Shown in pieces: positions 6,969-57,500 of a DNA stretch of 64,000 nt (positions are counted from its first letter, which is position 1; every line of letters starts with the position of its first letter). The stretch covers positions 17,619 through 81,618 of the forward strand of contig CAZRFU010000016.1 in NCBI GenBank assembly GCA_964599475.1, given 5' to 3'. Below the pieces are notes generated by a model that saw only the letters and a list, made by a program, of their open reading frames with translations, was not told the DNA's origin and ran no database searches. The position numbers and the translations under genes are program-made. The stretch is from an uncultured Thermoanaerobaculia bacterium (lineage in GTDB: Bacteria > Acidobacteriota > Thermoanaerobaculia > Multivoradales > CAZRFU01).

Positions 6969-6973
6969 GGCCC

Positions 6974-9451: not shown

Positions 9452-10057
9452 TCAGCCTGGGCGTGGTTCGAATCCGGTCAGCTCGAGATGCAACATCGCG
9501 CGAGCGGCCCGCCAGTCGCGCTTGACCGTCCGCAGCGAGACCGCTGTCGCATCGGCGATCTCCCCAAAGGTCAGCCCGCCGAAGAAGTGCCACTCGACCG
9601 TTTGGGCCAAGCGCGGGGCTGCGAGCTCCAGACGAGACAGGGCAGCATCCAGCGCCAAGAGATCTTCGATCGGGGCCGACGTGCCCGGCGCTGCGACGGC
9701 GATGGCGTCGAGGTCGATCTCAGGCTGACCACCACCACGTTTGCCTGCCTGGCGCCCGCGCGCGCGGTCGACCACCACGTGGCGCATCGCGCGCGAAGCC
9801 ACTGCGAACAGGTGTTGACGATCTTCGAATGGTAGCGCCCCTCGGCGCGACAGCCGCAGGAACACTTCGTGCACGAGCGAGGTGGCGGACGGCCCCGCAA
9901 CTTGGGCCCGCAGGTGGCGACCCGCCAAGGCCCGGAGGTCGGCGTAGATCAGATCGAACACCTTGCCTGCAGCATCGCGGTCGCCGCCGCGAGCGGCTGC
10001 CAGGAGCGCGGTCACGGCGCCCTGGTCGCCTTCGGGGGAATCGCCGGCCGCACCCAT
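9452..10057 (-). CDS. ECF-type sigma-70 family factor (second copy, kinase-associated)
   Basis: Only the last 201 aa of ORF 9452-11290 look real: AVTALLAAARGGD, TSLVHEVFLRL and FFGGLTFGEIADATAVSLRTVKRDWRAARAML. ATG at 10057. The RBS is weak, so the start is moderately uncertain. Confidence 0.85.
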   Translation of the reverse strand: MGAAGDSPEGDQGAVTALLAAARGGDRDAAGKVFDLIYADLRALAGRHLRAQVAGPSATSLVHEVFLRLSRRGALPFEDRQHLFAVASRAMRHVVVDRARGRQAGKRGGGQPEIDLDAIAVAAPGTSAPIEDLLALDAALSRLELAAPRLAQTVEWHFFGGLTFGEIADATAVSLRTVKRDWRAARAMLHLELTGFEPRPG

Positions 10058-10108
10058 TCCGAAGATTCTAGCGCCGCGTCCGACATCTCCTGTAGCGTTG
10101 CCGCACCG

Positions 10109-13072
10109 ATGGCCACCTCCCGGCAGGAAGAGCGAGCGCGCTGGTTCGTCGAGCTGTGCGACCTCGAGCTGCGGGAGCGTGACCGGGCTCTCGAGGAGAT
10201 CGCCGCGAGCGATCCCCAGCTGGCGGCCGAGGTCGAAAGGCTGCTCCGCCTCGATCGGCAATCGAACGGGCCGATCGAAGCCCTGCGCGAGGAACTTGGA
10301 CCGGCCCTGCACTCGGCGTTTTCCGAACTGGAGGTGGCAGACCTTGCGCCGCCGGAACGGCTCGGCCCGTGGCGCCTGGGCGAAAGACTCGGTGCGGGCG
10401 GCATGGGCGAGGTCTGGGCCGCCGAACGCGCCGATGCCGGCTTTGCCCAGCGCGCTGCCATCAAGCTGGTCCGCTCGAACATGGCGAGCGAGGAGGTGGT
10501 GCGCCGCTTCGCCATCGAACGCCGGGCTCTCGCACGGCTCGAACATCCCGGCATCGCCCGGCTGCTCGACGGCGGTGTCGCTCCCGATGGTCGCCCGTGG
10601 TTCGCCATGGAGCGGGTCGACGGCATCGCGATCACGACCTTCGCCGACACCAACGCACTCGACCTCGGGTCGCGATTGCGACTCTTCCTCGCCGTCATCG
10701 AGTCCGTCGCCTTTGCTCACCAGGCGCTGGTGGTCCATCGCGACCTCAAGCCCTCGAACATCCTGGTGACCGCGGCCGGCGCGCCCAAAGTCCTGGACTT
10801 CGGCCTGGCCAAGCTGCTCGACCCGGCGGAAGGCAACCAGGACCAGCCGGAGCTCACGCACACCAACCTGCTGGCGCTGACCCCGGCTTACGCCGCTCCA
10901 GAGCAATTCCTCGGCGAGCCGACCACCACCGCAACCGACGTCTACGCCCTGGGCGCGGTTCTGTTCGAGCTCCTCACCGGGCAATTGCCGCACCAGCGGC
11001 GAAGCCCTTCGCTCGCCGTGCTGCTCGAAGGGCTCGAGCGCGAGACCCTCGAGCGCCCTTCTCAGCGCCTCAGGCGTTCGGCTGCCAGCGAACGCCCGGA
11101 TCGAGCCGCCAGGCTGCTCGAGGGAGACATCGACACCATCGTGCTGCAGGCTCTCGCCCGCGAACCGGCCCGCCGCTACCCAACCGTGGCGGCGCTCGGC
11201 GCGGACATCCGCGCCCACCTCGAAGGGCGGCCGATCGCGGCACGGCCGGCCTCGGCCTTCTACCTCTTCTCCAAGTTCCTCGGGCGGCACCGAGCGGCGG
11301 CGATCGCTGCGCTGACCGTGGTGTCGGCCCTGAGCGTCAGCCTGATCGTCTCGTTGCAGCAGACTGCGGTCGCTCGCGCCGCCCTCGCCACGGCACAGAG
11401 CGAGGCCCGGCGCGCCGAGAGGGTCAAGGACTTCCTAGTGTCCGTGTTCGAACAGGCCGACCCAACCCACACCCAAGGAGCCGACGTGCCGGCGCGACAG
11501 ATCCTCGCCGAGGGCGCGGCCCAGCTGAGGACCAACCTCGCCGACGAGCCCGAGGTCCGCGCCGAGCTCTACGACACCGTCGCGCAGATCCAGACCAGCC
11601 TGGGATTGCTCGAAGAGGGGCTGGCCAACGCCGAAGCCGGCGCCGCAGAGCGCAAGCGGCAGTTCGGTGACAGCTCGCGCGAGTACGCCCGCAGCCGGGT
11701 GACGGTGGGCCGGGCCAAGCTGCAGCAGGCCCAGTTCGCTGGCGCGCTGGAGGACTTCGACCATGCCCTATCGGTGTTCGAAGCCAGGGTGGATACCCGC
11801 TCGCTCGACTTCGCGAAGGCACTCTCCGGTCGGGCCGAGGCCCGTCTGATGCTTGGCGACCCGGAGCAGGCGCGCACCGATCAGCTCGCCGCCAATGCGA
11901 TCTATGCCGCGGCCCTCGGGCCTGAGGATCGGGAAACCCTCGGCCAGCTCTCGAATCTCGCCGTGATCGAAACCCGGTCCGGAACCGTCCTCGAGGCCGC
12001 GCGGATCTTCCGCCAGGTGCTGGCCGGCCTCGAACGCGTCGAGCCCCCGGACTCGGCACGTGTGCTCGATGTCGTCCTCAATCTCGCCACCGCCCTCGAC
12101 ACCGCCGGCCAGAGCACAGAGGCCTTGGCGCTGTTCGAACGCGTCGTCGCCGGTCGCCGGAGGATCTACGGGGACCAACACCCCCTGCTTGCCGAAGCGC
12201 TGGTGATCGCCGGGCTCAGGATGTCGCGAGCCGGCCGTGGCGACGACGCACTTCGAGCGCTCGACGAGGCCCGCGCGATCTACGCACCGCTCGATCACCC
12301 GGAGCTCGGTACCGTCGACAACTTCAGCGGCCTGACCTACGCCGACCTGGGGCGGTTCGCCGAAGCCGAGGCGGCGTTCGCGGCAGCGTCGGCTCGGTTC
12401 TCACGGGACCTCGGCCCCGCGCACGTGATGACGGTTTCCGCCAACGCCAATCGGGCCAACGTGGTGAGTGAGCTCGGTCGCGAGGACGAGGCAGTCGAGC
12501 TGTTCGCCGAGGCGGTCGCCCAGCTGCGTGTGCTCCAGCAGCTCGACAACCCGAGGCTGTTGCGCATGCGACTGAACTGGGGAGCGGCGCTGCGCCGCGC
12601 CGGACGCTTTGCCGAAGCGCGGTCGGTGCTGGAAGCCGCGATGGCGGCCGCGCGCGAGCAGTTCGGAGGCGACCATCTGCGCATTGCCGAGGGCTCGGTC
12701 GAGCTCGCCCGCCTCGAGCTGGCTGCGAGAACGTCCACCGCTCCCGAGGTCGCTGCCTCACTGCTCGCCGAGGCGGAGCGGATCGCCGAGAACAACCCGC
12801 CCAACGCCGCCTTGGCCCGCAATCTGGCGGCAGCGAGGGCGGAACTGCGGGAGGCAAACGGTTCCTCGGCACCCATCACGGCCCCGACCACCCTGCCATC
12901 GACCCCGCTCGAACCCGTCCGAGAAGATCAGGCCATTGTCGAGGCTGGGGGACGGGCTCTACCATCTCCTGGCGTGCGGCGCGATCGAGGTGGAGATCAG
13001 CTCCGGCTCGGTGTCCGCGGTAGACGTCTTCGCCGACCGGCTGCGATTCGAGCTGCTGGATCTGCTGCGTGA
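10109..13072 (+). CDS. Ser/Thr protein kinase with one transmembrane segment and a C-terminal TPR array (3' end uncertain)
   Basis: ATG 10109 (MATSRQEERARWF). LGAGGMGEVW, AIKL, HRDLKPSNILV, DFGLAKL and APE motifs. TM segment AAAIAALTVVSALSVSLIVSL, then TPR repeats. The last ~60 aa are low-complexity and overlap an out-of-frame DGFESGDTSAWS tail. Confidence 0.85.
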   Translation: MATSRQEERARWFVELCDLELRERDRALEEIAASDPQLAAEVERLLRLDRQSNGPIEALREELGPALHSAFSELEVADLAPPERLGPWRLGERLGAGGMGEVWAAERADAGFAQRAAIKLVRSNMASEEVVRRFAIERRALARLEHPGIARLLDGGVAPDGRPWFAMERVDGIAITTFADTNALDLGSRLRLFLAVIESVAFAHQALVVHRDLKPSNILVTAAGAPKVLDFGLAKLLDPAEGNQDQPELTHTNLLALTPAYAAPEQFLGEPTTTATDVYALGAVLFELLTGQLPHQRRSPSLAVLLEGLERETLERPSQRLRRSAASERPDRAARLLEGDIDTIVLQALAREPARRYPTVAALGADIRAHLEGRPIAARPASAFYLFSKFLGRHRAAAIAALTVVSALSVSLIVSLQQTAVARAALATAQSEARRAERVKDFLVSVFEQADPTHTQGADVPARQILAEGAAQLRTNLADEPEVRAELYDTVAQIQTSLGLLEEGLANAEAGAAERKRQFGDSSREYARSRVTVGRAKLQQAQFAGALEDFDHALSVFEARVDTRSLDFAKALSGRAEARLMLGDPEQARTDQLAANAIYAAALGPEDRETLGQLSNLAVIETRSGTVLEAARIFRQVLAGLERVEPPDSARVLDVVLNLATALDTAGQSTEALALFERVVAGRRRIYGDQHPLLAEALVIAGLRMSRAGRGDDALRALDEARAIYAPLDHPELGTVDNFSGLTYADLGRFAEAEAAFAAASARFSRDLGPAHVMTVSANANRANVVSELGREDEAVELFAEAVAQLRVLQQLDNPRLLRMRLNWGAALRRAGRFAEARSVLEAAMAAAREQFGGDHLRIAEGSVELARLELAARTSTAPEVAASLLAEAERIAENNPPNAALARNLAAARAELREANGSSAPITAPTTLPSTPLEPVREDQAIVEAGGRALPSPGVRRDRGGDQLRLGVRGRRLRRPAAIRAAGSAA

Positions 13073-13256
13073 CGGCTTCGAAAGTGGCGACACCAGCGCA
13101 TGGTCGCTCGCGGTGCCGTAGCCGCGGCCATCCGGCCTGCGGGCTATCATCTGCTCGCGGTGACCGAGATGCCGAGCGCGGACTCGCCATTCGCAACGGT
13201 CGCGGCGCAGGCCGAGAGCAGAGAAGCCGACGAAGGCCCGGCGGGTTCAGCCGAGT

Positions 13257-15131: not shown

Positions 15132-15592
15132 TGGGGCCTCGGCGTCTCAGGCAGGTCATCGCCCTGATCGTGGCGCTGGCTGCCGCGGTGATCGGCCTCG
15201 AGGGCCGCGGATACCCCTGGTCACTGGCCGCGATCTTGGGTGCTGCCTGCGGAGCGTTCGTCTGGGTCTTGCTCGAGCGGATCGGCGAGATCGCGGCGAT
15301 GTTCGGCGATCACCACCCGCCACGGGAAGACGAGGACCGCCGCCAACAGCGCGAGATGGATCCACCCGCCGAAGACCATTCCGGCGCCGAGGGATACCAA
15401 CCAGGTCGAGAACAAGCCGAAGGTGAGGGCCAGCCGCAAGAGCTCGGGGCGCATGATGCACAGTCTAACCCCGAGGAGCCACTTCGCCGTGCGACGCTGG
15501 ATACTGACACCCCCGAGGTGCTGTTCGACCACCCGCTGATGCGAGCCGAACGGCGTCGGCTGCCGGCACCGGACGAGGAGCAGCACCGCTGA
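15131..15592 (+). CDS. Hypothetical membrane protein with two N-terminal TM helices and an acidic tail
   Basis: Joined by TGATG overlaps to the upstream gene (15129-15133) and to crcB (15590-15594). High GC3 in the TM part. It competes with the antisense ORF 15221-15586. Confidence 0.5.
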   Translation: MGPRRLRQVIALIVALAAAVIGLEGRGYPWSLAAILGAACGAFVWVLLERIGEIAAMFGDHHPPREDEDRRQQREMDPPAEDHSGAEGYQPGREQAEGEGQPQELGAHDAQSNPEEPLRRATLDTDTPEVLFDHPLMRAERRRLPAPDEEQHR

Positions 15593-15987
15593 TGCTACGC
15601 CTCGCCGTCGCCGTCGCCGCCGGCGGGGCCCTCGGCGCCCTGCTGCGCTGGGGTGTCGGTCTGGCGGGCCTCGAGCTCGCGCGTCGGCTCCCGGAGCCGG
15701 CGCGCTGGTGGCCTCTCGGCACCCTGGCAGCCAACGCCCTCGGCTGTTTTGCCATCGGCCTGCTCGTCGGGATCTTCGAACACCGCTGGGCAGCCCCGAG
15801 CGGGTGGCGAGCCTTTCTGGTGGTCGGGCTCCTCGGCGGATTCACCACCTTTTCGAGCTACGCTCTCGAGGCGGTGCAGATGGTCCAAGACGGCCGGGCC
15901 CGCGAAGCCCTCGGCTACGTGCTGGTTTCAACCGTCGGCGGGGTGCTGCTGGTCGCCGCCGGCTGGACCCTCGGCCGAGCGACGTGA
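15592..15987 (+). CDS. crcB: Fluoride ion channel CrcB/FluC
   Basis: 131 aa and four TM helices. GTLAANALGCF and LLGGFTTFSSY signature motifs. Confidence 0.9.
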   Translation: MLRLAVAVAAGGALGALLRWGVGLAGLELARRLPEPARWWPLGTLAANALGCFAIGLLVGIFEHRWAAPSGWRAFLVVGLLGGFTTFSSYALEAVQMVQDGRAREALGYVLVSTVGGVLLVAAGWTLGRAT

Positions 15988-15994
15988 GCAGTTG

Positions 15995-16075
15995 CCTACG
16001 CACCCTGCACCCCGGCCGTGCACCCCGGCCGATGAAAATCCGGTCTTCAGTACCCGGTACCTGGTACCCTCGTGG
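15995..16075. repeat. Member of the heptad-repeat intergenic element family
   Basis: 13-nt tandem duplication TGCACCCCGGCCG x2 (16006-16031), the core GATGAAAATCCGGTCTTCAG, and heptads GTACCCG GTACCTG GTACCCT (16050-16070). About 45 nt is a near-exact inverted copy of 30925-30968. Confidence 0.8.
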
Positions 16076-16642: not shown

Positions 16643-16772
16643 GGTACCGGGTACCAGGTACTCGTCGGAGCGCGAAAGCCACCCTCGGACGAAGCGCGCG
16701 AACGCCCGTCCATGTCGACCCGACGGGACGCCCGCCCTCCGGCTGGTCCCGGGTACCGGGTCCCGGGTCCCT
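16643..16772. repeat. Heptad-repeat intergenic element with two arrays bracketing a core
   Basis: GGTACCG GGTACCA GGTACTC (16643-16663) and GGTCCCG GGTACCG GGTCCCG GGTCCCT (16745-16772) flank an ~80-nt GC-rich core. The core begins CGTCGGAGCGCG, which is conserved next to the heptads at 31.0 kb and 35.7 kb in the opposite orientation. Confidence 0.8.
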
Positions 16773-16776
16773 ATCT

Positions 16777-17199
16777 CTACCGCCCAGCCGCCACCAGCCG
16801 TGCCCGGCACAACTCGATGGTGCGCATCGAGTCGCGGTAGCTCTCGTCCTGCGCTGCCACCACGAGCTTCTCCGCTGCAGCCATCGCCGCCTTGGTCGCG
16901 TCGACATCGATCTGCTCGGGGCCCTCGGCCTGATCGGCCAGCACCGTGACGACGTTGGCGCGCACCTCGCAGAAACCGCCGGACAGCGCAAAGACCCGAG
17001 TCTTCGCGCCGTCTTTGACCCGCATCACGCCGATGTCGAGCGTCGCCACCAAAGCGGCGTGGCCGGGGAGCACCCCGAACTCGCCCTTGCTGCCGGGCAG
17101 GATGACCTCGTCGCATGCGCCCGACAGAACCTCGCGATCGAGGGTGACGAGATCGAGGTGCAGGCGACCGGACGGCCCTGAGGTCGGTGCGTTTGCCAT
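16777..17199 (-). CDS. atpC: F1 ATP synthase epsilon subunit
   Basis: 140 aa. LPGSKGEFGVLPGHAALV motif. Last gene of the atp operon. The listed ORF start at 17643 is antisense run-on. Confidence 0.9.
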   Translation of the reverse strand: MANAPTSGPSGRLHLDLVTLDREVLSGACDEVILPGSKGEFGVLPGHAALVATLDIGVMRVKDGAKTRVFALSGGFCEVRANVVTVLADQAEGPEQIDVDATKAAMAAAEKLVVAAQDESYRDSMRTIELCRARLVAAGR

Positions 17200-29674: not shown

Positions 29675-30573
29675 TGCGGGTCCTTCGCACCCCCGCCGAA
29701 CGTTTCGTCGGCCTCCCGGACTTTCCCTGGGTGCCGCGCGAGACCGAGGTCTCCGGGCTGCGCATGTGCCACGTCGATGCCGGCGAGGGTCGGCCGATCC
29801 TGCTGCTCCACGGTGAGCCGACCTGGTCGTTCCTCTACCGCACCATGATCCCGGTGCTGGTCGAGGCGGGATTTCGGTGCCTGGCACCGGACCTGATCGG
29901 CTTTGGCCGCTCCGGCAAACCGGCCGACATCGGTGCGTACTCCTACGCCCAACACGTCGCCTGGCTCGCTGAGTGGATCGAAGCCAACGATCTTTCGGAC
30001 CTGGTCTTGGTCGCCCAGGACTGGGGCTCTTTGCTGGGACTCAGGTTGGTGGCGGAACACCCAGGGCGTTTTGCCGCCGTGGTGATCGCCAACGGCTTCC
30101 TGCCCACCGGCGACCAGCGGGTGCCGGCGGTGTTTCGGCTGTGGCAGAACTTCGCGCGGTGGTCACCCTGGTTCCCAGTCGGGCGCATCGTGCAGTGGGG
30201 ATCAGCCACCACCCTGCCGCCCGAGGTCGTCGCCGCGTACGACGCACCGTTCCCGACCTCGGCCCACAAAGTCGCCGCCCGGGCCTTCCCGCGCCTGGTG
30301 CCCACCACCCCCGACAATCCCGCCAGCAGCGCCAACCGCGCCGCGTGGAAGGTCCTCGAAGGGTGGCACAAGCCCTTTCTGACCGCCTTCGGCAGCCGCG
30401 ATGCGATCTTTCGCGGCGCCGATCGGGTGCTCCAACAGCGGATCCCCGGCGCCAAGGGCCAGCCCCACACGATCATCCGCGGCGCCGGCCACTTCATCCA
30501 GGAAGACCGCGGGCCGGAGCTGGCGCGAGTGATTGCGGAGTTTGTGCGCGGGCTGGAAGGGGTTGGGGGTTAG
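29674..30573 (+). CDS. Haloalkane dehalogenase family alpha/beta hydrolase
   Basis: LLLHGEPTWSFLYRTMIP, DLIGFGRSGKP and the nucleophile elbow VAQDWGS. Collinear with DhlA/DhmA-type enzymes. Confidence 0.85.
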   Translation: MRVLRTPAERFVGLPDFPWVPRETEVSGLRMCHVDAGEGRPILLLHGEPTWSFLYRTMIPVLVEAGFRCLAPDLIGFGRSGKPADIGAYSYAQHVAWLAEWIEANDLSDLVLVAQDWGSLLGLRLVAEHPGRFAAVVIANGFLPTGDQRVPAVFRLWQNFARWSPWFPVGRIVQWGSATTLPPEVVAAYDAPFPTSAHKVAARAFPRLVPTTPDNPASSANRAAWKVLEGWHKPFLTAFGSRDAIFRGADRVLQQRIPGAKGQPHTIIRGAGHFIQEDRGPELARVIAEFVRGLEGVGG

Positions 30574-30586
30574 GGGTTAGGGGTTA
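30559..30586. repeat. Tandem heptads GGGGTTG GGGGTTA GGGGTTA GGGGTTA
   Basis: Four direct heptads span the dehalogenase stop codon (TAG 30571-30573). Confidence 0.85.
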
Positions 30587-30857
30587 GGCTCCGTGCAGAG
30601 GCTGTCGGCGGGTTGCTACGAGCACCATCGGTCCGTGGTCGCCACTCGAGGGTGATCGCGTGCCGGCCGGCAGGAGCGCGCAGGGCGAGGAAGGCGTGGT
30701 CGGCGATCGCCACCTCGAGCGGCCCACCCCCTACGGTCGAAGCCCGCCAACCCGGCCACGCCGGTTCGGTCACCACCACCCATCCGTCACTCTGCATCGA
30801 CACTTCGAGAGCCAAGCGGTTCGGCGCCTGCCGACGGGCGACGACTTGCCCGCTGGG
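30570..30857 (-). pseudogene. C-terminal remnant of a YfhO-like polytopic membrane protein
   Basis: VVARRQAPNRLALEVSMQSDGWVVVTEPAWPGWRASTVGGGPLEVAIADHAFLALRAPAGRHAITLEWRP matches the YfhO C-terminal pattern (...PGW.A.vdG......F..v.vpaG.H.v...Y.P). Upstream the frame runs straight into repeat-element sequence, with no N-terminal part. Confidence 0.55.
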
Positions 30858-30884
30858 ATTGCCAACCTCGGCCGGCGGCGCGCC

Positions 30885-31061
30885 GGGTGCACCACGGAGA
30901 CATGGGGAACTGCTCAGAAAATGGGTACCGGGTACCAGGTACCGGGTACTGAAGGCCGGATTTTCATCCGCTGGGGTGCACCACGGAGGCATGGGGAACT
31001 GCTCACAGATTGCCCCGAACGCCACTCCGACAAGTACCCGATACCCGGTACCCGGTACCTT
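30885..31061. repeat. Composite heptad-repeat intergenic element (best example of the family)
   Basis: The unit GGGTGCACCACGGAGRCATGGGGAACTGCTCA occurs twice, 88 nt apart (30885-30920 and 30973-31009). Heptads GGTACCG GGTACCA GGTACCG GGTACTG lie at 30924-30951, the core GAAGGCCGGATTTTCATC follows, and heptads GTACCCG ATACCCG GTACCCG GTACCTT lie at 31034-31061. Confidence 0.85.
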
Positions 31062-31131
31062 GCAAGCAGTGCGCGGACGGCTCGATCGTTCCTCCAGCCG
31101 GGGCGCACCACCGAGGGATCCACGGCAACGA

Positions 31132-32775
31132 CTAATCGTTCTGCATCAGGCCGCGGATCCGCCCACCGGGCTCGATGCGGACACGCCGCGCCGCGGGATC
31201 CTTGGGGAGTCCCGGCATGGTCATGATGTCGCCCGCAAGCGCCACGTAGAACCCGGCGCCGGCGGACAGCCGCACCTCGCGGATGGTGGCGATATCGCCA
31301 GGCGCCGGCCGCCCGCGTTTGGCCGGATCGTCGCCGAGGGCCAGGTGCGTCTTGGCGACACACACCGGCAGGTCCGGCCCCTCGATCGCGATCGCGTTGG
31401 CGAGGTCCTTCTTGGCCTTGGGGGTCAGCACCACGTCACTGACACCCCACGCGGTACGACCGATCAGCTTGAGCTTCTCCTCGGGGTGGACATCGAGCGG
31501 GTAGAGATGCCGGACATCCACCGGGTGAGGCTGCGCGGCCAGGACTTCGGCGACGGCGTCGGCGAGCTCGAGGGAACCATCACCTCCCTGGGCGAAGCCG
31601 TCACACGCCGCCACCGGCGTACCGCGGTCACGACCATGGGCGCGCACGATGTCGAGCTCCGCATCCGAATCGGTGGCGAAGCGGTTGAGGGCGACCACCG
31701 CCGGCACGCCGAACACCGCCAACGTCTCGAGGTGTTTGTCGAGCACGTCGAGGCCCTTGCGCAGCGCCGCTTCGTTGGGATCCCCAAGGGTTCCCGCGGC
31801 CGCGCCACCGTGGTGTTTGAGGGCCCGCAGGGTCGCGACGATCACCGCCGCGTTGGGGGCGAGGTCCTTGCGCCTTGCGACGATGTCGAGGTACTTTTCG
31901 CCACCGAGGTCGCAGCCGAAGCCACCTTCGGTGACCACGACATCGGCGTGGGCGAGTGCAATCCGGCTCGCGACCACACTCGAGCAGCCGTGGGCGATGT
32001 TGGCGAACGGCCCGCCGTGCACGAACGCCGGCCCTCCTTCGCGGGTCTGCACCAGGTTCGGCATGTGGGCGTCGCGCAGCAGGGCGGTCATCGCCGCAGC
32101 CGCCTGGATGTCGCTCGCGCGGACCGCCGAGCCGTCCGGGCGCCGACCGATGACGATCTTGCCGAGCCGGCGCTCGAGGTCGGCGAGGTCGTCGGCGAGG
32201 CAGAAGATCGCCATCACTTCGCTCGCGGCGGTGATGTCGAAGCGGGTCTCGCGCGGCACGCCGTGCACCGGGCCGCCGAGGCCGATGATCGCGTGCCGCA
32301 ACGCCCGGTCGTTCATGTCGAGCACGCGCGGCCAGGTCACGGTGCGCGCATCGATCGGCTCGCCGAAGTGCAACGCGGCGTCGAGCAGCGCCGCCAGCAG
32401 ATTGTGGGCCGCCGAGATCGCGTGGAGATCACCGGTGAAGTGCAGGTTGATCGCGTCGGCCGGCTCGATCGTCGCGAGCCCGCCGCCGGTGCCACCACCC
32501 TTGACCCCGAACACTGGGCCGAGCGAGGGTTCACGCAGGGACGGCACCGCGAGCTTGCCGCGTTTGCGCAAACCCATGGCGAGCGCAATCGACATCGAGG
32601 TCTTGCCTTCGCCCGCGGGCGTCGGGTTGATCGCAGTGACGAGGACCAGTTGGCCTCGACGGGCATCGGCTCGGGGTGCAGCCGCGATCTTGGCGCGGTG
32701 GGGACCCCACGGGAGGACGACGTCACGGGCGAGACCGAGCTCGTCCGCAACCGCTTCGATTGGACGCAGTGTCAT
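31132..32775 (-). CDS. fhs: Formate--tetrahydrofolate ligase
   Basis: TPAGEGKTSMSIAL, EPSLGPVFGVKGGGTGGG and full-length collinearity with Fhs. Confidence 0.95.
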   Translation of the reverse strand: MTLRPIEAVADELGLARDVVLPWGPHRAKIAAAPRADARRGQLVLVTAINPTPAGEGKTSMSIALAMGLRKRGKLAVPSLREPSLGPVFGVKGGGTGGGLATIEPADAINLHFTGDLHAISAAHNLLAALLDAALHFGEPIDARTVTWPRVLDMNDRALRHAIIGLGGPVHGVPRETRFDITAASEVMAIFCLADDLADLERRLGKIVIGRRPDGSAVRASDIQAAAAMTALLRDAHMPNLVQTREGGPAFVHGGPFANIAHGCSSVVASRIALAHADVVVTEGGFGCDLGGEKYLDIVARRKDLAPNAAVIVATLRALKHHGGAAAGTLGDPNEAALRKGLDVLDKHLETLAVFGVPAVVALNRFATDSDAELDIVRAHGRDRGTPVAACDGFAQGGDGSLELADAVAEVLAAQPHPVDVRHLYPLDVHPEEKLKLIGRTAWGVSDVVLTPKAKKDLANAIAIEGPDLPVCVAKTHLALGDDPAKRGRPAPGDIATIREVRLSAGAGFYVALAGDIMTMPGLPKDPAARRVRIEPGGRIRGLMQND

Positions 32776-35605: not shown

Positions 35606-35830
35606 GGGACCGGGGACCAGGGACCCGGGACCCGGGATACCAGAGACGGGCACTTGATTTCATCCCCCGGGGTGCAGCACCCAGGGGTGCATGGGAACTG
35701 CTCAGAAGGATGCCCTCACCGCTCCGGCGAGTACCCGATACCCGGCACCCGGTGCCACGCCGGTGGCGCACAGACGGTCCGATTTCATTCAACCTGGGCG
35801 TACCACCGAAGGCCCATGGGCAACTACACA
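35606..35830. repeat. Composite heptad-repeat intergenic element
   Basis: Heptads GGGACCG GGGACCA GGGACCC GGGACCC GGGATAC (35606-35640), GATTTCATCC, the unit GGGGTGCAGCACCCAGGGGTGCATGGGAACTGCTCA (35669-35705), heptads GTACCCG ATACCCG GCACCCG GTGCCAC (35731-35758), then a second degenerate GATTTCAT...CCATGGGCAACT unit. Collinear with 30950-31061. Confidence 0.85.
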
Positions 35831-49138: not shown

Positions 49139-51501
49139 GGCCCCTCGAGCTGGTCTTGGAAGGCTTTCGATCCTGGGGAGATCGGGCGACGTTCGATTTC
49201 CGCAATCGTCACCTGGTCGCAATCGTCGGGCCGATCGGCAGCGGCAAGAGCTCCTTGCTCGACGCCATCGCCTTCGCCCTGTACGCGCGCACGCCCCGAA
49301 TCGAGAAGGAAGTGGCCGCGCTGATCCGCCACGGCTGCGACGAGGCACGGGTCGAGCTGCTGTTTGAAGCCGGTGGCTCAGCCTACCGCGCCATTCGCGT
49401 GATCAAGCGCAAGGGCGCCAATCAACATGCGCTGTGGCGTTACGCCGACGACGCCGGAGCCGGTGAGCCGATCGAGCGGCTCGATCGTGCGCGGGAAATC
49501 GACGAGCGGCTTCACCAGGTGGTGGGGCTCGACTTCACCGCCTTCTGCCGCTCGGTACTGCTCGCCCAGAACCAGTTTGCACGGTTCCTCGAGGCGCCGC
49601 CGGCCGAACGCGACGCCGTGCTCAAGGGCCTTTTCGGCTTCGAGCGACTGGACGCGATGCGCGAGCTCGCTCGGCAACGGGAAGAACGCTGCAAGGCCGA
49701 GCTCGGCGGGCTCGAGCGCCGCCTGTCCGAGCTGAGCCAGCTGGAGCAGCAGCTTCCCGGTCTCGAAGCCCGCACCGCAGCGGCGGCAGCTCGTGTCGCC
49801 CAGTTGCGCCAGGCAGCGCCCGACTTCGAGCGGATCCAAGCCGCCCGCCAGGAAGCAAACGAGCTCGAACAGCAGACCCGCAAGGCGCGGCAGGGTCTCG
49901 CCGCGATCGAACGCGATCTCCCACCGCCGCAACAGGTCACCGACCTCGCCTCGGGCGCCGCACGGCGCCAAGCAACCCTCGACCAGACCAACCGAGCGCT
50001 GGCGCAGATCGAGGCGGCTCTGCTGCGCTGCGAAGAAGCCGAAGCGACGACCCTCACCGCCATCGCGGCCCAGACCTCGGCCCTGCACCACCTCGGCCTC
50101 GAACGCGCCGAAGACTCGCTGCGCGCTGCCATCGCCGCCGACCACGACTGCCGCGCCGCACTCACCGCGGCCGAGGAGAAGCTCGAGCGCGCGAGAGAGA
50201 CACTGCGCCGCACCGAGCACGGGCAGTACGCCGCCCTGCTGCGAGAAGACCTCGAGCACGGCCAGCCGTGCCCGGTCTGCGACCAGCCGGTGCCGGTGGT
50301 CCCGCAGGCGCGCCCGGTCCCCGAGCTGGACCATGCCCGCACCCAGAGGACGCTGGCCGAGAACGAGCGGGCCCTCCGGGCCCAGGCCCTGGAGCGCGCT
50401 CACCGCGAGGCCGCCGCCGCCGAGGCCAAACGCAACGCAGCACAGTCCGCGCTCGAGGCGTGGCAGGCCTCGAACCCCGACGTGGTAGCGAGCGCTGATC
50501 CCGATCCGCAGGCCGCCCGTGCCGCCGCTACTGCCGACCTCGAGCAGATCCGCCGCGAGCGCGCCGCTCTGCGCCTCGATCGAGACCGAGCCCGGACGCG
50601 CCTCGCCGAAGCCCAGGCTGCGGTGGCCGGCATCGAAGCCGAGGTGTCCGAGCTCGTACGGCGCCTCGAACGGCTCGCCGGCAGACTCGACCTGGACCAG
50701 CTTCCGGAAGGCCTAGTAGCAGCTCGGACGCAGCTCCACGACGAGCTCGAGCGGCGCATCGCCGGAGCCGAGGCCACCATCGCGGAAACGAGGGCGGCCA
50801 CGGCCGCCCTGGACAGCCGGATCCTGGCGTTGTGCACCGCCGTGGGTCTCGAACCGACAACCTCCTTCGACGGGGCCCTGGCCGAGGCCGAGCGCTCCCT
50901 CACCCGCCACGAGACGGAGCTCGCAGCCCTGCGAGACCGACTCCGCGAAGCCGAGCTACGGCGCGGCGAGCTGGACCACTGGCGCGAACAGTTGTCGATC
51001 TGGAGTGGCCTGGCCGAGGACCTGCGCCCTTCGCGCCTGCTTCGTCACCTGCTCGACGAAGAGCGCCGGCGTTTGGCGGCAATCGCTGCAGAGCGCTTCG
51101 AAAACCTCTCAGGGGGCCGCTACCGGTTCAGCCCGGATGGCAGCTTCGCCGTCGTCGATCTCGCCAACGCCGAGGAGCTGCGCCGCCTCGACACCCTCTC
51201 CGGTGGCGAGACCTTCCTCGCCGCGCTGGCTCTCGCCCTGGCCCTTGCCGAGATCGTCGCCGGTGGTGGCGGACGCCTCGACGCGTTTTTCCTCGACGAG
51301 GGCTTCGGCAGCCTCGACCAGGAGCACCTGCGACTGGCCCTCGACGGCATCGAGCACCTCGTCGTCGATGCCCCTGGGCGTCTGGTGCTCCTGGTCAGCC
51401 ACGTGCCCGAGGTCCAGGAGCGCTTCGACGACGTCATCTCACTCGACCGCGAACCGCTCCAGGGCGCGTCGATCATCCGCTCCGGGGCGACGCCACCGTA
51501 G
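49135..51501 (+). CDS. sbcC: Exonuclease SbcC (Rad50 family)
   Basis: GTGA overlap with sbcD. Walker A GPIGSGKSS, long coiled coils, zinc hook CPVC, LSGGETF signature and Walker B FFLDEGFG. Confidence 0.92.
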   Translation: MRPLELVLEGFRSWGDRATFDFRNRHLVAIVGPIGSGKSSLLDAIAFALYARTPRIEKEVAALIRHGCDEARVELLFEAGGSAYRAIRVIKRKGANQHALWRYADDAGAGEPIERLDRAREIDERLHQVVGLDFTAFCRSVLLAQNQFARFLEAPPAERDAVLKGLFGFERLDAMRELARQREERCKAELGGLERRLSELSQLEQQLPGLEARTAAAAARVAQLRQAAPDFERIQAARQEANELEQQTRKARQGLAAIERDLPPPQQVTDLASGAARRQATLDQTNRALAQIEAALLRCEEAEATTLTAIAAQTSALHHLGLERAEDSLRAAIAADHDCRAALTAAEEKLERARETLRRTEHGQYAALLREDLEHGQPCPVCDQPVPVVPQARPVPELDHARTQRTLAENERALRAQALERAHREAAAAEAKRNAAQSALEAWQASNPDVVASADPDPQAARAAATADLEQIRRERAALRLDRDRARTRLAEAQAAVAGIEAEVSELVRRLERLAGRLDLDQLPEGLVAARTQLHDELERRIAGAEATIAETRAATAALDSRILALCTAVGLEPTTSFDGALAEAERSLTRHETELAALRDRLREAELRRGELDHWREQLSIWSGLAEDLRPSRLLRHLLDEERRRLAAIAAERFENLSGGRYRFSPDGSFAVVDLANAEELRRLDTLSGGETFLAALALALALAEIVAGGGGRLDAFFLDEGFGSLDQEHLRLALDGIEHLVVDAPGRLVLLVSHVPEVQERFDDVISLDREPLQGASIIRSGATPP

Positions 51502-51512
51502 CAGCCCGTGGT

Positions 51513-51533
51513 GCGCCCCGGGTCCCGGGTCCC
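51513..51533. repeat. Short heptad array GCGCCCC GGGTCCC GGGTCCC
   Basis: Lies in the 36-nt gap between the convergent stops of sbcC and the 51538 gene. Same GGGWCCC heptad as at 16.7 kb and 35.6 kb. Confidence 0.7.
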
Positions 51534-51537
51534 TGAG

Positions 51538-51948
51538 CTAGCCTTCCGGCTTCGGGTCGCCGCCGGCCTCGGAATCGCTCTCGGTGCCGTCCGCTTCGTC
51601 GACGATCTTGGGAGCGGCTCGGAAGACCGGAGTGAAACGCTCGCGGATGCCGTCGAGGGAGATGCTCTCGACGTAGTACCAATAGGCGCGGCGCGGATCG
51701 ATGGTGCGATCGACGAAGACGTAGGCCTGTGGTTCGTCGACGGTTCCGGCGCCGGGAATCGGCGTTTCGGTGAGGCGCTCGAACGGGCCTTCTTCGGCGT
51801 CGCCGCGGTAGACGTCGAAGCCGAAGTTCTCGACCTCACTCGCGGTCTTCCACTTGAGCGTGTTGGTGTACTCGGTCACCTCGTCTGCGACCGCCGAGGC
51901 GGCGCTCAGCAGCCCGAGCGCGAGCAGGGCCAGGAACTTGTTGCGCAT
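51538..51948 (-). CDS. Small secreted protein with an FN3/Ig-like repeat
   Basis: Signal peptide MRNKFLALLALGLLSAASAVA. LKWKTASEVENFGFDVYRG......YVFVD....YWYYV pattern. TGATG coupling to the C25 peptidase gene. Confidence 0.7.
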   Translation of the reverse strand: MRNKFLALLALGLLSAASAVADEVTEYTNTLKWKTASEVENFGFDVYRGDAEEGPFERLTETPIPGAGTVDEPQAYVFVDRTIDPRRAYWYYVESISLDGIRERFTPVFRAAPKIVDEADGTESDSEAGGDPKPEG

Positions 51949-54574: not shown

Positions 54575-57500
54575 TCACACCCACTCGGCGCACAGCAGTT
54601 CCGCCTGGGCCAGCACCGTCTTGACCGCTTGGTCCTGGAGATCCGGCGGGTAGCCCCAACGATTGAGGATGCGTTTGACCATCACCCGCATGCGTGCGCG
54701 GGCGCTTTCGCGGACGGTCCAGTCGATGGTGGCGCTCTTCCTCACCTGGGTGATCAGCTCGGCGGCGATCGCGCGCAACTTCTCGTCACCCATCGCCTGC
54801 ACCGCGCTGTCGTTGGTGGCGAGCGCGTCGTAGAAGGCGATCTCGTCGTCGCTGAGACCGAGCGCTTCGCCGCGTTTCCCGGCGGCTTCGAGGTCCTTGG
54901 CGAGCTTGATCAGCTCTTCGATGACTTCCATCGTCGAGATCGCGCGGTTGTGGTACTTGTTCAGCGTTTCCTTGAGCTTTTCGCTGAAGACCTGGCTCTC
55001 GACCAAGTTGCGCTTGCCGCGCACCTTGAGCTCGTCTTCGAGCAGCTTGCGCAGGAGCTCGGCGGCGACGTTCTTGTGCTGCAGGCCGCGGACCTCGGCG
55101 AGGAACTGGTCGCTCAAGATCGAGATGTCGGGTTTCTGCAGACCGGCGGCGGTGAACACGTCGATCACTTGGCCGTCGGTGGTGATCGCCTTGCTCACCA
55201 ACTGGCGGATCGCCGCGTCGATCTGTTCGGGGGTCTTGCCGCTCCCTGAGCCACCCTTGGCGAAGGCCGCTTGCAGCGCCTGGAAGAACGACACGTCGTC
55301 GCGGATCGTCGTCGCCTCGTCGGTTGCCGCCGCGAGCGCGAAGGCACGCGAGAGCTCCATCACCACCCTGGCCCACCGTTGTTGACCGTCCGGCTGCGCC
55401 AGGATGTGCTCGCGGCCGGCGGGAATCAACGCGAGGCGTTCGCTCGGCGAGCCGCTGATCCAGCGGCTCCAATCGAAGCCGTTCAGCATCGAGCAGGCGA
55501 CCTCGTGCTTCTCGAGCATCACCGCAATCGCGGCAGCCGTGTCGAAGGTCGGATCACCCTTGCCGCCGCTTTCGGTGTAGGTCGCCAGTGCCCGTTTGAG
55601 CTGATCCGCGAGCCCGAGGTAGTCGACCACCAGGCCGCCGGGCTTGTCGCGAAACACCCGATTCACTCGTGCGATCGCCTGCATCAGGCCGTGGCCGTGC
55701 ATCGGCTTGTCGACGTACATGGTGTGCAGACACGGCGCATCGAAGCCGGTCAGCCACATGTCGCGCACGATCACGATGCGGAAGGGATCTTTGGCGTCTT
55801 TGAAGCGCGTCGCCATCCGCCGCCGACGGTCTTTGCTGCGGATGTGCGGTTGCCACGCAGGGCCGTCGTCGGCGCTGCCGGTCATCACCACCTTGACCAC
55901 ACAGCTGCGGTCCTTTTCGGCCTCGGCATCGTCGCCGACACTCGCCCATTCGGGGCGAAGCGCGATCAGCGCGTCGTAGAGGTCGACGCAGATGCGCCGG
56001 CTCATGCACACCACCATCGCCTTGCCGTCCATCGCCTCGAGGCGCTTCTCGAAGTGCGCCACCAAGTCCGCCGCGATCAACGCGATGCGTTTCGGGTCGC
56101 CGACCAAGGCTTCGAGCGCCGCCCACTTGCTCTTGAGCTTCTCGCGGTGGGTCGGCTCTTCGCCCTCGGTGATCTCGTCAAACTCGTCGTCGAGCTTGGG
56201 GACCTCGGCGGCGTTGAGGCTGAGCTTCGAGATCCGGCTTTCGTAGTAGATCGGCACCGTCGCCTGATCCGCCACCGCTCGCTGGATGTCGTAGATCGAG
56301 ATGTAGTCGCCGAACACCACCCGCGTGTTGGCGTCGGCGAGCTCGATCGGGGTGCCGGTGAAGCCGATGTAGCAGGCGTTCGGCAGCGCGTCGCGCAGGT
56401 TGCTCGCAAAGCCGTACGACAACGCGCCGGTCTTGGGGTTGACCTTGGCGCCGAAGCCGTATTGGCTGCGGTGTGCTTCATCGGCGATCACCACGATGTT
56501 CTGCCGCGCACTCAGCACCGGCATGGCTTCGCCCTGCTCCGGCAGGAACTTGTGAATGGTGGTGAAGACCACGCCGCCGCTCGCGACCGTCAGGAGCTCG
56601 CGCAGCTGCTCACGGCTGCCGGCCTGCACCGGCGTCTGCCCGAGCACGTCGGCGCAGCGCTGGAACTGGCCGAAGAGCTGGTCGTCGAGGTCGTTGCGGT
56701 CGGTCAACACCACCAGCGTCGGGTTCTGCATCACCGGGTGGCGTACCACTCGTGCGGCGAAGAAGAGCATCGAAAAGCTCTTGCCGCTGCCCTGGGTGTG
56801 CCACACCACCCCGGCGCGGCGGTCGCCCGGCTGGCCGCCGCGCATCCGCCCGGCCCAATAGGTGCCCGGCGTTTCCTTCGCCTCGTCGGCTCGCGCCAAC
56901 CCACTCGCCCGCACCGTCTCCTCGACCGCGGCGTTGACCGCGTGGAACTGGTGGTAGCCGGCGATGATCTTGTGCAGCGCCCCCGAGTCCGGATCCTCCT
57001 CGAACACGATGAAGTGCTGCAGCAGCTCGAGGAAACGCCGCTGGTCGAACACTCCGCGGATCAACACCTCGAGCTCGAGCGCATTCGCCGGCGCGTCGCC
57101 CTCGCCGTCGACCGTGCGCCAGACCTTGAACCACTCCTGGTTCGCCGTGAGCGACCCCATCCGCGCCTGCAGTCCGTCACTCACCACCAACACCGCGTTG
57201 TACTGCAACAGCGACGGAATTTCGGCCTTGTAGGTCTGCACCTGCGCGTAGGCGCTCCAGATCGTCGCGTTTTCATCCGCCGCGTTCTTGAGCTCGATCA
57301 CGCCGAGCGGCAGCCCGTTGACGAACACCACCAGATCCGGCCGGCGGCTGTGCTGGCCCTCGATCACCGTGAACTGGTTCACCACCAGCCAGTCGTTGGC
57401 GGCGGAATCGGTGAAGTCGACCAGCCGCACGTGGTCGCCGGCGATCGACCCGTCCAGGCGGCGGTATTCCACCTGCACCCCGTTGCGCAGCAGCTTGTGG

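What the first reader, a model, noticed from the sequence alone, without database searches (positions are those of the whole stretch)
30885..31061. Dispersed intergenic repeat family built from tandem heptads (GGTACCN / GGGWCCC) and conserved cores
Seen:
- At least five intergenic sites carry arrays of 2-5 direct heptads whose cores are palindromic (GGTACC, or GGGACCC/GGGTCCC).
- The heptad arrays lie at 16050-16070, 16643-16663 plus 16745-16772, 30924-30951 plus 31034-31061, 35606-35640 plus 35731-35758, and 51513-51533.
- The heptads are joined to conserved non-heptad modules. These include GAAGRCCGGATTTTCATC, which occurs as near-exact inverted copies at 16031-16050 and 30951-30968. They also include GGGGTGCAnCACnnAGGnGCATGGGRAACTGCTCA (30885, 30973, 35669, and degenerate at ~35796) and GTACYYGYCGGAGYGG next to the heptads.
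- 30950-31061 and 35647-35758 are collinear over about 110 nt.
- Every site lies directly downstream of at least one stop codon, and three lie between convergent genes.

Established: heptanucleotide tandem repeats (STRR) are known from cyanobacteria, and REP/MITE-like elements from many bacteria. I do not recognise this sequence family.

Inference: this may be a novel REP/MITE-like element, perhaps acting as a bidirectional terminator or a protein-binding array.
Basis: partly seen in the sequence, partly recalled or inferred. Interest (0 to 1): 0.7.

Follow-up and report, generated by a model that had tools for sequence, protein, structure and literature searches.

The report
Stop-codon-anchored intergenic repeat with heptad arrays
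The repeats are real: a species-specific family of intergenic elements that each start at the stop codon of the upstream gene and carry short arrays of 7-base GGTACC-type repeats, a repeat class already known from many bacteria whose function is still unknown.

Summary
GGNNCC-N heptad arrays lie at five intergenic sites: GGTACCNGGTACC with up to 2 mismatches gives 22 hits against 0.9 expected. The conserved modules form seven copies at four of those sites.

Sites C (30884-31134) and D (35606-35826) are two collinear copies, about 225 nt long, of one composite element. Sites A and E are partial copies, and site B has arrays only. All four gene-proximal cores overlap the stop codon of the upstream gene, in the same orientation.

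The heptad part is not new in kind. Heptamer repeats are known to be over-represented in bacteria, and Geobacter metallireducens has 49 elements with four GGGACCG repeats. A genome scan found (GGTACCN)3 in more than 110 loci across many phyla, almost always intergenic. The cores are restricted to this deep-branching, probably Myxococcota, species.

One array differs between strains (5 versus 4 units). The other three arrays compared did not differ in a strain 97% identical.

The most likely reading is a REP/BIME-like mosaic in the 3' untranslated region, built around slippage-prone heptad arrays. The inverted arrays can form a 27-bp hairpin.

The data do not support a MITE or a general terminator. 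There is no match in Rfam and no blastn match in the plasmid collection. The function remains inferred.

The parts
15985..16026 (+). Site A core' (TGAGCAGTTGCC...GTGCACCCC). Its first three bases are the TGA stop codon of the CrcB gene (15592-15987). It contains a 13-nt tandem duplication.
16027..16049 (+). Site A P' module (GGCCGATGAAAATCCGGTCTTCA)
   Evidence: (I1)
16050..16069 (+). Site A heptad array (GTACCCG GTACCTG GTACCC). Short-read contigs of the same species stop at 16047, just before it.
16643..16662 (.). Site B array 1 (GGTACCG GGTACCA GGTACT), followed by the X-like CGTCGGAGCG. It lies 61 nt after the stop of the lipoprotein gene.
16745..16771 (.). Site B array 2 (GGTCCCG GGTACCG GGTCCCG GGTCCC). 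It is a few nt (array 16745-16771, stop 16777-16779) from the stop of the convergent ATP synthase epsilon gene (16777-).
30558..30590 (.). (GGGGTTA)x4 array spanning the stop codon of the alpha/beta hydrolase gene. It is a different heptad but the same class of repeat.
30884..30916 (-). Site C core copy C1, the copy furthest from the FTHFS (formate-tetrahydrofolate ligase) gene
30923..30950 (-). Site C array. It reads GGTACC-C/T in the gene orientation and pairs with 31033-31059. Read on the - strand (i.e. in the FTHFS direction) the array is followed by CATTTTC, which lies at lower + coordinates.
   Evidence: (I24)
30951..31005 (-). Site C P module (30951-30972) plus core copy C2 (30973-31005)
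31006..31032 (-). Site C X module (...CCACTCCGACA), shared with site D and in part with site B
   Evidence: (D16, I23)
31033..31059 (-). Site C array. It reads GGTACC-G in the gene orientation and is the other arm of the 27-bp hairpin.
   Evidence: (I24)
31060..31134 (-). Site C linker, degenerate P module and core copy C3. CTA at 31132-31134 is the FTHFS stop codon. Positions 31118-31131 are hypervariable between strains.
35606..35641 (-). Site D array (GGGACC-N on the + strand). It lies 57 nt upstream of the ABC ATPase start codon. The window has 5 units and six contigs from other samples have 4.
35642..35704 (-). Site D P module plus core copy D1 (35669-35704)
35705..35757 (-). Site D X module (35705-35729) plus array (35730-35757)
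   Evidence: (D16)
35758..35826 (-). Site D linker, degenerate P module and core copy D2. CTA at 35824-35826 is the stop codon of the GGDEF gene.
51499..51533 (+). Site E minimal unit. It begins with the TAG stop of the SbcC-like gene, continues as a short core' (TAGCAGCCCGTGGTGCGCCCC), and ends with GGGTCCC x2. The stop of the convergent gene follows at 51538-51540.

Best explanation
This is a species-specific mosaic intergenic repeat of the REP/BIME kind, and its variable parts are heptanucleotide simple-sequence arrays of the GGNNCC-N type.

**Shown: build and position**
- The basic unit, read in the direction of the upstream gene, has four parts in a fixed order:
  1. the stop codon (TGA or TAG);
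  2. core' (GCAGTTCCCC...CGTGGTGCRCCCC);
  3. the P' module (GGATGAAAATCC);
  4. a heptad array.
- Two such units, with arrays that are reverse complements of each other, make the full composite of about 225 nt at sites C and D.
- Sites A and E are single or truncated units.
- All four gene-proximal cores overlap the stop codon of the upstream gene, in the same orientation. At the formate-tetrahydrofolate ligase (FTHFS) gene that stop codon is the ancestral one.

**Shown: behaviour of the arrays**
- One array differs by one whole unit between strains.
- Arrays of the same type occur in many phyla, without these cores.

**Inferred: how it works**
- The arrays arise and change length by slipped-strand mispairing, as in other heptamer repeats.
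- The element is transcribed as the 3' untranslated region of the upstream gene.
- Its palindromic arrays, above all the inverted pair, fold into long G+C-rich hairpins. These would act like REP elements, as barriers to 3'-to-5' RNA decay, as pause or termination sites, or as modulators of translation termination.
- How the composite reached different loci is unknown. Recombination or gene conversion between copies, or mobilisation by a protein encoded elsewhere, are the options.
For: **The repeats are real and non-random**
- Motif statistics are given.
- Seven core copies align, and a profile finds no others.
- Sites C and D align over about 225 nt with the same module order.

**Anchoring at stop codons**
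- The stop codons of the CrcB, FTHFS, GGDEF and SbcC-like genes fall in the first bases of core'.
- The FTHFS C-terminus (GLMQND) aligns end to end with homologues (GLMQGE).

**Hairpin potential**
- The site C arrays form a 27-bp stem, 93% complementary (I24).
- The 261-nt transcript folds at -130 kcal/mol with z = -5.2.
- The same stem is largely kept at site D, with 5 of 27 pairs broken.

**The arrays are simple-sequence repeats**
- At site D the window has 5 units and six independent short-read contigs have 4.
- In 110 loci from other genomes, period-7 arrays (103, not counting the arrays selected for) outnumber period 6 (28), period 8 (25) and period 9 (41).
- The literature describes heptamer over-representation, and the polymerase-slippage hypothesis for it.
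- Geobacter metallireducens has 49 GGGACCG x4 elements.

**Repeat character in assemblies**
- Short-read contigs of the same species end at or inside the elements.

**Position in other phyla**
- GGTACCN arrays elsewhere are intergenic in about 85 of 92 cases.
- They start within 8 nt after a stop codon 20 times against 10.2 expected, p about 0.001 with my rough gene calls.
Against: **Function**
- No expression or RNA 3'-end data are available, so the function is inferred.
- Only site C gives a significant folding z-score. Site D gives -1.0, and sites A and B are at chance.
- Single arrays fold only modestly better than shuffles.
- There is no real covariation support. Only two independent copies exist, and the covariation term is 0.14.
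- The two arrays at site D have drifted apart in sequence (GGCACC/GGTGCC against GGGTCC). That argues against strong selection for the long stem.
- A terminator-like T-run follows only one array.

**Family size and dynamics**
- Genome-wide copy number is unknown, because only 64 kb plus small contigs of this species could be read.
- Three arrays have identical copy number in a strain 97% identical, so slippage is not fast.
- Divergence of the element between strains is not significantly below the synonymous rate, so purifying selection is not shown.
Confidence: 0.5

Rival explanations
1. The element is a foldback-type non-autonomous transposon (MITE). The inverted heptad arrays would be its terminal inverted repeats. 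A transposase encoded elsewhere would mobilise it into sequences at or next to stop codons.
For: - Inverted arrays flank an 82-90-nt interior at sites C and D.
- Copies lie at unrelated loci.
- In other genomes, pairs of the GGTACC-R then GGTACC-Y type outnumber the reverse order 11 to 2. Some lineages have their own conserved interior.
- Assemblies break at the elements.
- The window does encode an IS200-type Y1 transposase.
Against: - No target-site duplication is visible around the arrays (by eye only).
- The conserved part extends outside the array pair: core C3/D2 on one side and C1 on the other.
- Partial copies (A, E) have only one array.
- The site B arrays are direct, not inverted.
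- Position and structure are identical in a second strain 97% identical.
- The Y1 transposase is flanked by a different repeat family.
- Arrays in most other genomes have unique flanks.
Confidence: 0.15
2. The heptad arrays are by-products of replication slippage with no function. They are tolerated only outside genes because 7 is not a multiple of 3. The conserved modules are simply old duplicated intergenic DNA.
For: - Copy number differs between strains at one array.
- Heptad sequence drifts within and between arrays.
- Dozens of unrelated heptads form arrays in other genomes.
- Most arrays elsewhere have unique flanks.
- There is no significant constraint between strains.
- The slippage hypothesis is already in the literature.
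Against: - It does not explain why all four gene-proximal cores overlap the stop codon in one orientation.
- It does not explain why a 225-nt composite keeps the same module order at two loci.
- It does not explain why arrays in other phyla start 4-8 nt after stop codons more often than expected.
Confidence: 0.2
3. The arrays are iteron-like binding sites on double-stranded DNA for a dimeric protein that recognises GGTACC. Candidates would be a nucleoid-associated protein, a regulator or an HUH-type protein. The arrays would act at the DNA level, in chromosome organisation, regulation or recombination.
For: - The hexamer core is palindromic, and three units of 7 bp span 21 bp, about two helical turns.
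- The same (GGTACCN)3 sits beside the replication-origin hairpin of 2.1-kb CRESS-like viral contigs that encode a Rep protein. Binding there is inferred from position and general knowledge of such viruses; it was not tested.
- The site D array lies 57 nt upstream of a start codon and varies in length.
Against: - No candidate binding protein was found.
- Units within arrays drift away from GGTACC (GGGTCC, GGCACC, GATACC).
- Other genomes carry arrays of many non-palindromic heptads.
- I could not show any orientation or position bias towards promoters.
Confidence: 0.1
4. The core modules are relics of a transposase gene. On the + strand, GGGGTGCACCACGGAGGCATGGGGAACTGCTC reads WGAPRRHGELL. That resembles the helix-turn-helix motif WGAPRIHGELL of rve-type transposases.
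For: - The metagenome scan hit an rve_3/HTH_21 transposase gene, with 32 of 37 bases identical.
- The identity includes 4-6 bases outside the search pattern.
Against: - The similarity stops at 11 codons.
- Translations of the elements have no Pfam hit even at E = 10.
- The interior of the core is the variable part of the family.
- The orientation is opposite to the stop-codon anchoring.
- About 0.2-1 chance hits were expected for that pattern (my own estimate, which assumes a mean contig length), and one clear chance hit (L113) was also returned.
Confidence: 0.04

Closest known systems
Heptanucleotide simple-sequence repeats. Examples are cyanobacterial STRR, GGGAATC in Xanthomonas, GGGGAYT in Nostoc and TAACTGA in Beggiatoaceae.
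   Same: - Arrays are short (2-5 or more units), of period 7 and intergenic.
- Each genome has its own dominant unit.
- Length varies between relatives.
- Inverted pairs of arrays occur.
- Function is unknown.

   Different: - The unit here is a palindromic hexamer plus one base (GGTACC-N, drifting to GGGWCC-N).
- The arrays are embedded in conserved non-repeat modules.
- The whole element is anchored at stop codons.
Geobacter metallireducens Gmet_H4## elements: 49 copies of a G+C-rich element with four GGGACCG repeats
   Same: - The heptad is almost the same as at site D (GGGACCG GGGACCA GGGACCC).
- About four units sit inside a larger repeated G+C-rich element.
- The family is multicopy and of unknown function, annotated as a putative regulatory RNA.

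   Different: - The Geobacter elements are reported inside genes as well as between them.
- I could not read their flanking sequence, so homology of the non-heptad parts is untested.
- Nothing is reported about anchoring at stop codons.
REP/BIME elements of enterobacteria and pseudomonads
   Same: - They are extragenic mosaics of palindromic units and conserved linkers, in alternating orientation.
- They lie in 3' untranslated regions and between convergent genes, often very close to stop codons.
- In E. coli, REP hairpins stabilise upstream mRNA, and REPs within about 15 nt of a stop codon affect translation (Liang, Rudd and Deutscher 2015). This last point is from my own knowledge and was not retrieved here.
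   Different: - The palindromic units here are tandem heptads, not single imperfect palindromes of 20-40 nt.
- There is no conserved GTAG-type tetranucleotide.
- No REP-associated transposase is linked to them. The Y1 transposase in the window is flanked by another repeat family.
MITEs and foldback elements
   Same: - Inverted arms flank a short non-coding interior.
- Copies are dispersed and break assemblies.
   Different: - I saw no target-site duplication by eye, no autonomous partner and no insertion polymorphism.
- Conserved sequence extends beyond the arms, and truncated copies have a single arm.
Iterons at the replication origin of CRESS-DNA viruses
   Same: - The same (GGTACCN)3 array lies next to a hairpin.
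   Different: - There, the arrays sit at a replication origin beside a Rep gene.
- Here, they are chromosomal and multicopy, with no Rep gene and no conserved nonanucleotide loop.

Membership tests
Heptanucleotide SSR / STRR-like arrays | Head-to-tail repeats of a 7-nt unit, at least 2-3 copies | tested here: met
   Tandem Repeats Finder reports period 7 with 2.4-4.6 copies at nine places. The pattern statistics agree.
Heptanucleotide SSR / STRR-like arrays | Located outside coding sequence | tested here: met
   All arrays lie between called genes. Only (GGGGTTA)x4 overlaps the last codons of a gene. In other phyla about 85 of 92 are intergenic.
Heptanucleotide SSR / STRR-like arrays | Copy number varies between related strains by whole units | tested here: met
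   Site D has 5 units in the window and 4 in six contigs from other samples. Three other arrays are unchanged in L120.
Heptanucleotide SSR / STRR-like arrays | Many arrays per genome, with one dominant unit | tested here: inconclusive
   Eight of nine arrays in 64 kb are GGNNCC-N. The rest of the genome could not be read.
REP/BIME | Multicopy extragenic imperfect palindromes combined with conserved linker motifs into mosaics | tested here: met
   The same modules (core', P', X, arrays) recur in a fixed order at four sites. The arrays are palindromic.
REP/BIME | Association with a REP-associated tyrosine transposase (RAYT) flanked by the same repeats | tested here: not met
   The only Y1 transposase found in the 20 ORFs scanned (57767-58228) matches the IS200 model, not the RAYT model (20 bits against a cut-off of 80). 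It is flanked by a different repeat family. The rest of the genome was not seen.
REP/BIME | Hundreds of copies per genome | not testable with these tools
   Only the window and a few short contigs of this species were reachable.
REP/BIME | Stabilises or terminates upstream transcripts | not testable with these tools
   This needs RNA data. The only computed support is the hairpin prediction at site C.
MITE | Terminal inverted repeats at the element boundaries | tested here: inconclusive
   The arrays are inverted at sites C and D. However, conserved modules lie outside them, and the site B arrays are direct.
MITE | Target-site duplication | tested here: not met
   No direct repeat flanks the array pairs or the whole composites. 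I checked this by eye, not with a dedicated search.
MITE | Presence/absence polymorphism, or an autonomous relative with the same ends | tested here: not met
   Site C is occupied identically in strain L120. No related transposase gene is nearby, and the metagenome hit is a weak 37-nt match only.
Rfam RNA families | Match to a curated covariance model | tested here: not met
   There are no matches at gathering score. Only chance-level miRNA hits appear at E = 0.2-0.5.
Intrinsic terminator | G+C-rich hairpin followed by a U-run | tested here: not met
   One of eight arrays qualifies (30943-30924, minus strand, then CATTTTC). None qualifies at sites A, B or D; site E (51499-51533) was not scanned.

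The most novel reading that the evidence does not exclude
GGTACC-type heptad arrays could be a cis-element shared across phyla rather than slippage debris. On this reading, they are placed a few bases after stop codons and read by a conserved factor. That factor could act on terminating ribosomes or RNA 3' ends. Alternatively it could bind the arrays as iterons, as I infer the Rep protein of the CRESS-like viral contigs does with its own copies. Each lineage would then have built its own composite element around the arrays, and the stop-codon-anchored element here would be one example.
Probability: 0.1. Interest if true: 0.75.

Novelty: new variant of a known kind. Interest (0 to 1): 0.42.

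Why it matters
- Heptamer repeats have been noted as over-represented in bacterial genomes since 2007, without an accepted function or origin.
- This window gives a tidy case. The arrays are fixed parts of a conserved composite that always begins at a stop codon, and one array shows a length difference between strains.
- The side results give concrete hypotheses to test, on RNA 3'-end formation, translation termination or protein binding. Those results are:
  - the same GGTACCN arrays occur in many phyla;
  - they tend to start 4-8 nt after stop codons;
  - they also occur beside a viral replication origin.
- In practice, these elements break short-read assemblies and invite spurious gene calls. 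A 188-aa ORF across the element is deposited as a protein.

Tried and rejected
1. **Rfam.** Searches at gathering and at E-value thresholds found nothing meaningful.
2. **Plasmid collection.** blastn with the element found no match.
3. **Metagenome scan for the core.** It returned only a transposase gene (two contigs) and one chance hit, and no further family members.
4. **Looking for other copies through spurious ORFs.** I used translations of the element. The word-indexed search and the exhaustive HMMER search found only the window's own ORF (P0121) plus low-complexity junk. P0121 could not be located on a contig.
5. **Orthologous-locus comparison.** This was not possible. The nearest non-self FTHFS homologue is 63-64% identical, from Myxococcota.
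6. **Profile search.** A profile of the seven core units found no additional copies in the window or in 113 foreign loci.
7. **Read-through peptide idea.** The TGA...TGA spacing is in frame in three copies, but other copies are out of frame (my own reading), so I rejected it.
8. **Transposase-relic idea.** I found no domain-level support.
9. **3' versus 5' preference of arrays in other phyla.** The result depended on how I treated uncertain start codons: convergent to divergent was 19:2 with one method and 15:19 with the other. I make no claim.
10. **Purifying selection on the element between strains.** This was not significant once clustered substitutions were considered.
11. **Literature.** Two searches were uninformative or malformed.

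Full report
**1. What is in the sequence**

The window is 68% G+C. It has no tRNA genes and no Rfam match at gathering score.

GGTACCNGGTACC with up to two mismatches occurs 22 times against 0.88 expected from shuffles. All but two of the 22 matches (1053 and 29876) fall in five intergenic regions.

The non-heptad modules are also real.
- The 16-mer CATGGGGAACTGCTCA gives 4 hits against 0.5 expected, and the 17-mer GGGGTGCACCACGGAGG gives the same.
- A 52-nt stretch at 16018-16069 is 94% complementary to 30930-30981.
- A ninth array of another heptad, (GGGGTTA)x4, lies at 30558-30590 over the stop codon of a hydrolase gene.
- A profile built from the seven core units finds no further copy in the window.

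**2. Anatomy**

The flanking genes are ordinary chromosomal genes. They encode:
- CrcB;
- a lipoprotein;
- ATP synthase epsilon;
- an alpha/beta hydrolase;
- formate-tetrahydrofolate ligase (FTHFS);
- an ABC ATPase;
- a GGDEF protein;
- an SbcC-like ATPase;
- a C25 peptidase.

Read in the direction of the upstream gene, the unit has four parts:
1. the stop codon (TGA or TAG);
2. core' (GCAGTTCCCC...CGTGGTGCRCCCC);
3. the P' module (GGATGAAAATCC);
4. a heptad array.

Sites C (30884-31134) and D (35606-35826) are two copies of one composite of about 225 nt.
- The module order in both is: stop, core', P', linker, (GGTACC-G)n, X, TGA-core', P', (GGTACC-C/T)n.
- They align collinearly from end to end.
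- Site C carries one extra core at its far end.

The other sites are smaller.
- Site A is a single unit.
- Site E is a minimal unit (TAGCAGCCCGTGGTGCGCCCC plus GGGTCCC x2).
- Site B has two arrays in direct orientation and only a fragment of X.

All four gene-proximal cores overlap the stop codon of the upstream gene (CrcB, FTHFS, GGDEF and SbcC-like), in one orientation. For FTHFS the stop is at the ancestral position: the protein ends GLMQND where homologues end GLMQGE. The element therefore begins at the stop codon without changing the protein.

**3. Organism, other strains and polymorphism**

The closest FTHFS proteins from other organisms are only 63-64% identical and come from Myxococcota. 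The species is therefore a deep-branching lineage with no close sequenced relatives.

The same species appears in several public short-read assemblies and in one JGI contig.
- **Assembly breaks.** Short-read contigs stop at 16047, at about 35638/35649 and at about 35672. These points are at or inside the elements. That is the behaviour of repeated or polymorphic sequence.
- **Site C in a second strain.** JGI contig L120 is 97.3% identical and covers site C completely. Position, module order and the unit numbers of three arrays are identical. Only a 14-nt patch next to the FTHFS stop codon (31118-31131) is rewritten.
- **Site D in other samples.** The window has five units (GTATCCC GGGTCCC GGGTCCC TGGTCCC CGGTCCC). 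Six contigs from other samples have four. This is a whole-unit length polymorphism.
- **Constraint.** Divergence of the element between strains is not significantly lower than the synonymous rate.

**4. The heptads are a known class and are widespread**

The phyla and groups represented include:
- Acidobacteriota;
- Gemmatimonadota;
- Acidimicrobiia;
- Planctomycetota;
- Dehalococcoidia;
- Bacteroidota;
- Streptomyces;
- Rhizobium.

About 17 matches would be expected by chance for 18 fixed bases; this is my own estimate.

The loci show the following.
- None of them carries the window's cores.
- The arrays are intergenic in about 85 of 92 cases.
- They often sit next to arrays of quite different heptads.
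- Leaving out the arrays selected for, period-7 arrays (103) far outnumber period 6 (28), period 8 (25) and period 9 (41).
- Some lineages have their own composite built around the arrays, for example a C-run/G-run hairpin between inverted arrays in one Planctomycetota genome. Most arrays, however, have unique flanks.
- With my rough gene calls, arrays start within 8 nt after a stop codon 20 times against 10.2 expected (p about 0.001).

The literature agrees.
- Heptamer repeats are over-represented in many bacteria and have been little studied.
- One hypothesis attributes them to polymerase slippage.
- Geobacter metallireducens has 49 G+C-rich elements with four GGGACCG repeats.
- TAACTGA arrays occur in Beggiatoaceae.
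- I found no paper describing GGTACCN arrays.

**5. Structure and function**

- The inverted arrays at site C form a 27-bp stem. The 261-nt transcript folds with z = -5.2.
- Site D keeps most of this stem (22 of 27 pairs), but its overall z-score is only -1.0.
- Sites A and B are at chance.
- Single arrays fold at -5 to -15 kcal/mol, modestly better than shuffles.
- With only two independent copies there is no usable covariation.
- Only one array is followed by a T-run.

I conclude that hairpin formation in the 3' untranslated region is the best-supported physical property. A REP-like role in RNA decay, pausing or translation termination is inference.

**6. Alternatives considered**

Alternatives, with the main evidence for and against each:

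| Alternative | For | Against |
|---|---|---|
| MITE | Inverted arms and dispersed copies | No target-site duplication seen, no partner element, no insertion polymorphism; conserved sequence lies outside the arms |
| Neutral slippage debris | Fits the arrays | Does not explain the stop-codon anchoring or the conserved composite |
| Protein-binding iterons | (GGTACCN)3 sits beside the origin hairpin of 2.1-kb CRESS-like viral contigs that encode a Rep protein | No binding protein is known here |
| Transposase relic | The core reads WGAPRRHGELL on the + strand and matches an rve-type transposase gene at 32 of 37 bases | No domain-level support; the match is probably chance |

**7. Verdict**

The family itself is new and specific to this species. 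In kind, it is a variant of two known things: heptanucleotide simple-sequence arrays and REP/BIME-like intergenic mosaics.

The distinctive point is the strict start at stop codons. Interest is moderate.

Noticed in passing
57767-58228 (-), with repeats at 58297-58538, 58685-58784 and 60295-60508: An IS200/IS605-type Y1 transposase gene (Pfam Y1_Tnp 76 bits; NCBIfam IS200 model 57 bits; RAYT model only 20 bits) lies directly upstream of a type I restriction hsdR gene. It is preceded by a separate family of foldback repeats about 240 nt long, with 41-nt inverted ends and small hairpins (CCCAGGGCAACGCCCTGGG, GCCCTGAAAGGGC). The arrangement looks like REPINs (paired inverted REP units) next to their transposase.
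   Followed up: partly
57376-57763 and 60516-60903: The 5' end of hsdR is duplicated at 92-93% identity. The second copy is a 231-aa HSDR_N fragment. The transposase, the foldback repeats and a DUF2142 membrane protein gene lie between the two copies. This suggests an insertion or rearrangement in a type I restriction-modification locus.
   Followed up: partly
30558-30590: (GGGGTTA)x4, a G-rich telomere-like heptad array that could form a G-quadruplex. It encodes the last residues and the stop of the hydrolase gene on one strand. In strain L120 it also holds the stop of an 85-aa ORF on the other strand. Unit number is the same in both strains.
   Followed up: partly
35606-35641: The array 57 nt upstream of the ABC ATPase start codon has 5 units in the window and 4 in six short-read contigs from other samples. 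A 7-bp change here could alter promoter or 5'-UTR spacing.
   Followed up: partly
31118-31131 and 31294-31315: There are two clusters of substitutions between the window and strain L120. One has 7 changes plus a 2-nt indel in 14 nt next to the FTHFS stop codon. The other has 8 synonymous changes in 22 nt inside FTHFS. They look like short gene-conversion or template-switch patches.
   Followed up: no
about 12927-13140, compared with L114-L116: Short-read contigs of the same species carry about 1.9 kb, encoding a 522-aa beta-helix protein, between the kinase gene and the DUF5698 gene. The window lacks this stretch, so it is a structural difference between strains.
   Followed up: no
30574-30884, compared with L120:2898-3155: The 'intergenic' stretch left of site C holds the remnant of a small ORF (85 aa, weak YfhO hit in L120). 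Relative to L120, the window has a 44-nt deletion at 30629.
   Followed up: no
30973-31005, compared with L111:506-541 and L112: The core reads WGAPRRHGELL on the + strand. It matches 32 of 37 bases of the helix-turn-helix region of an rve_3/HTH_21 transposase gene from a soil metagenome. This is probably chance, but it is not excluded that the core derives from such a gene.
   Followed up: yes
L128-L131 and L133 (viral contigs of about 2.1 kb): These are CRESS-DNA-like genomes with Rep and capsid genes. They carry (GGTACCN)3 directly beside the origin stem-loop (loop TAATACT / AGTATTAC), with a further GATACC on the other side of the stem. This is the position expected for Rep-binding iterons.
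   Followed up: partly
1616-3157 (+): This gene has five or more internal tandem repeats of 198-201 nt (about 66 aa each), so it encodes a repeat-domain protein.
   Followed up: no
6368-9334 and 9869-13072 (+): Two adjacent paralogous large genes share segments at a spacing of 3138-3162 nt. The second was annotated in L114 as a Ser/Thr kinase with TPR repeats.
   Followed up: no
30660-31226 (+): A 188-aa ORF that runs straight across the repeat element is deposited as a protein (P0121, NCBI). It is almost certainly a spurious gene call caused by the element.
   Followed up: yes
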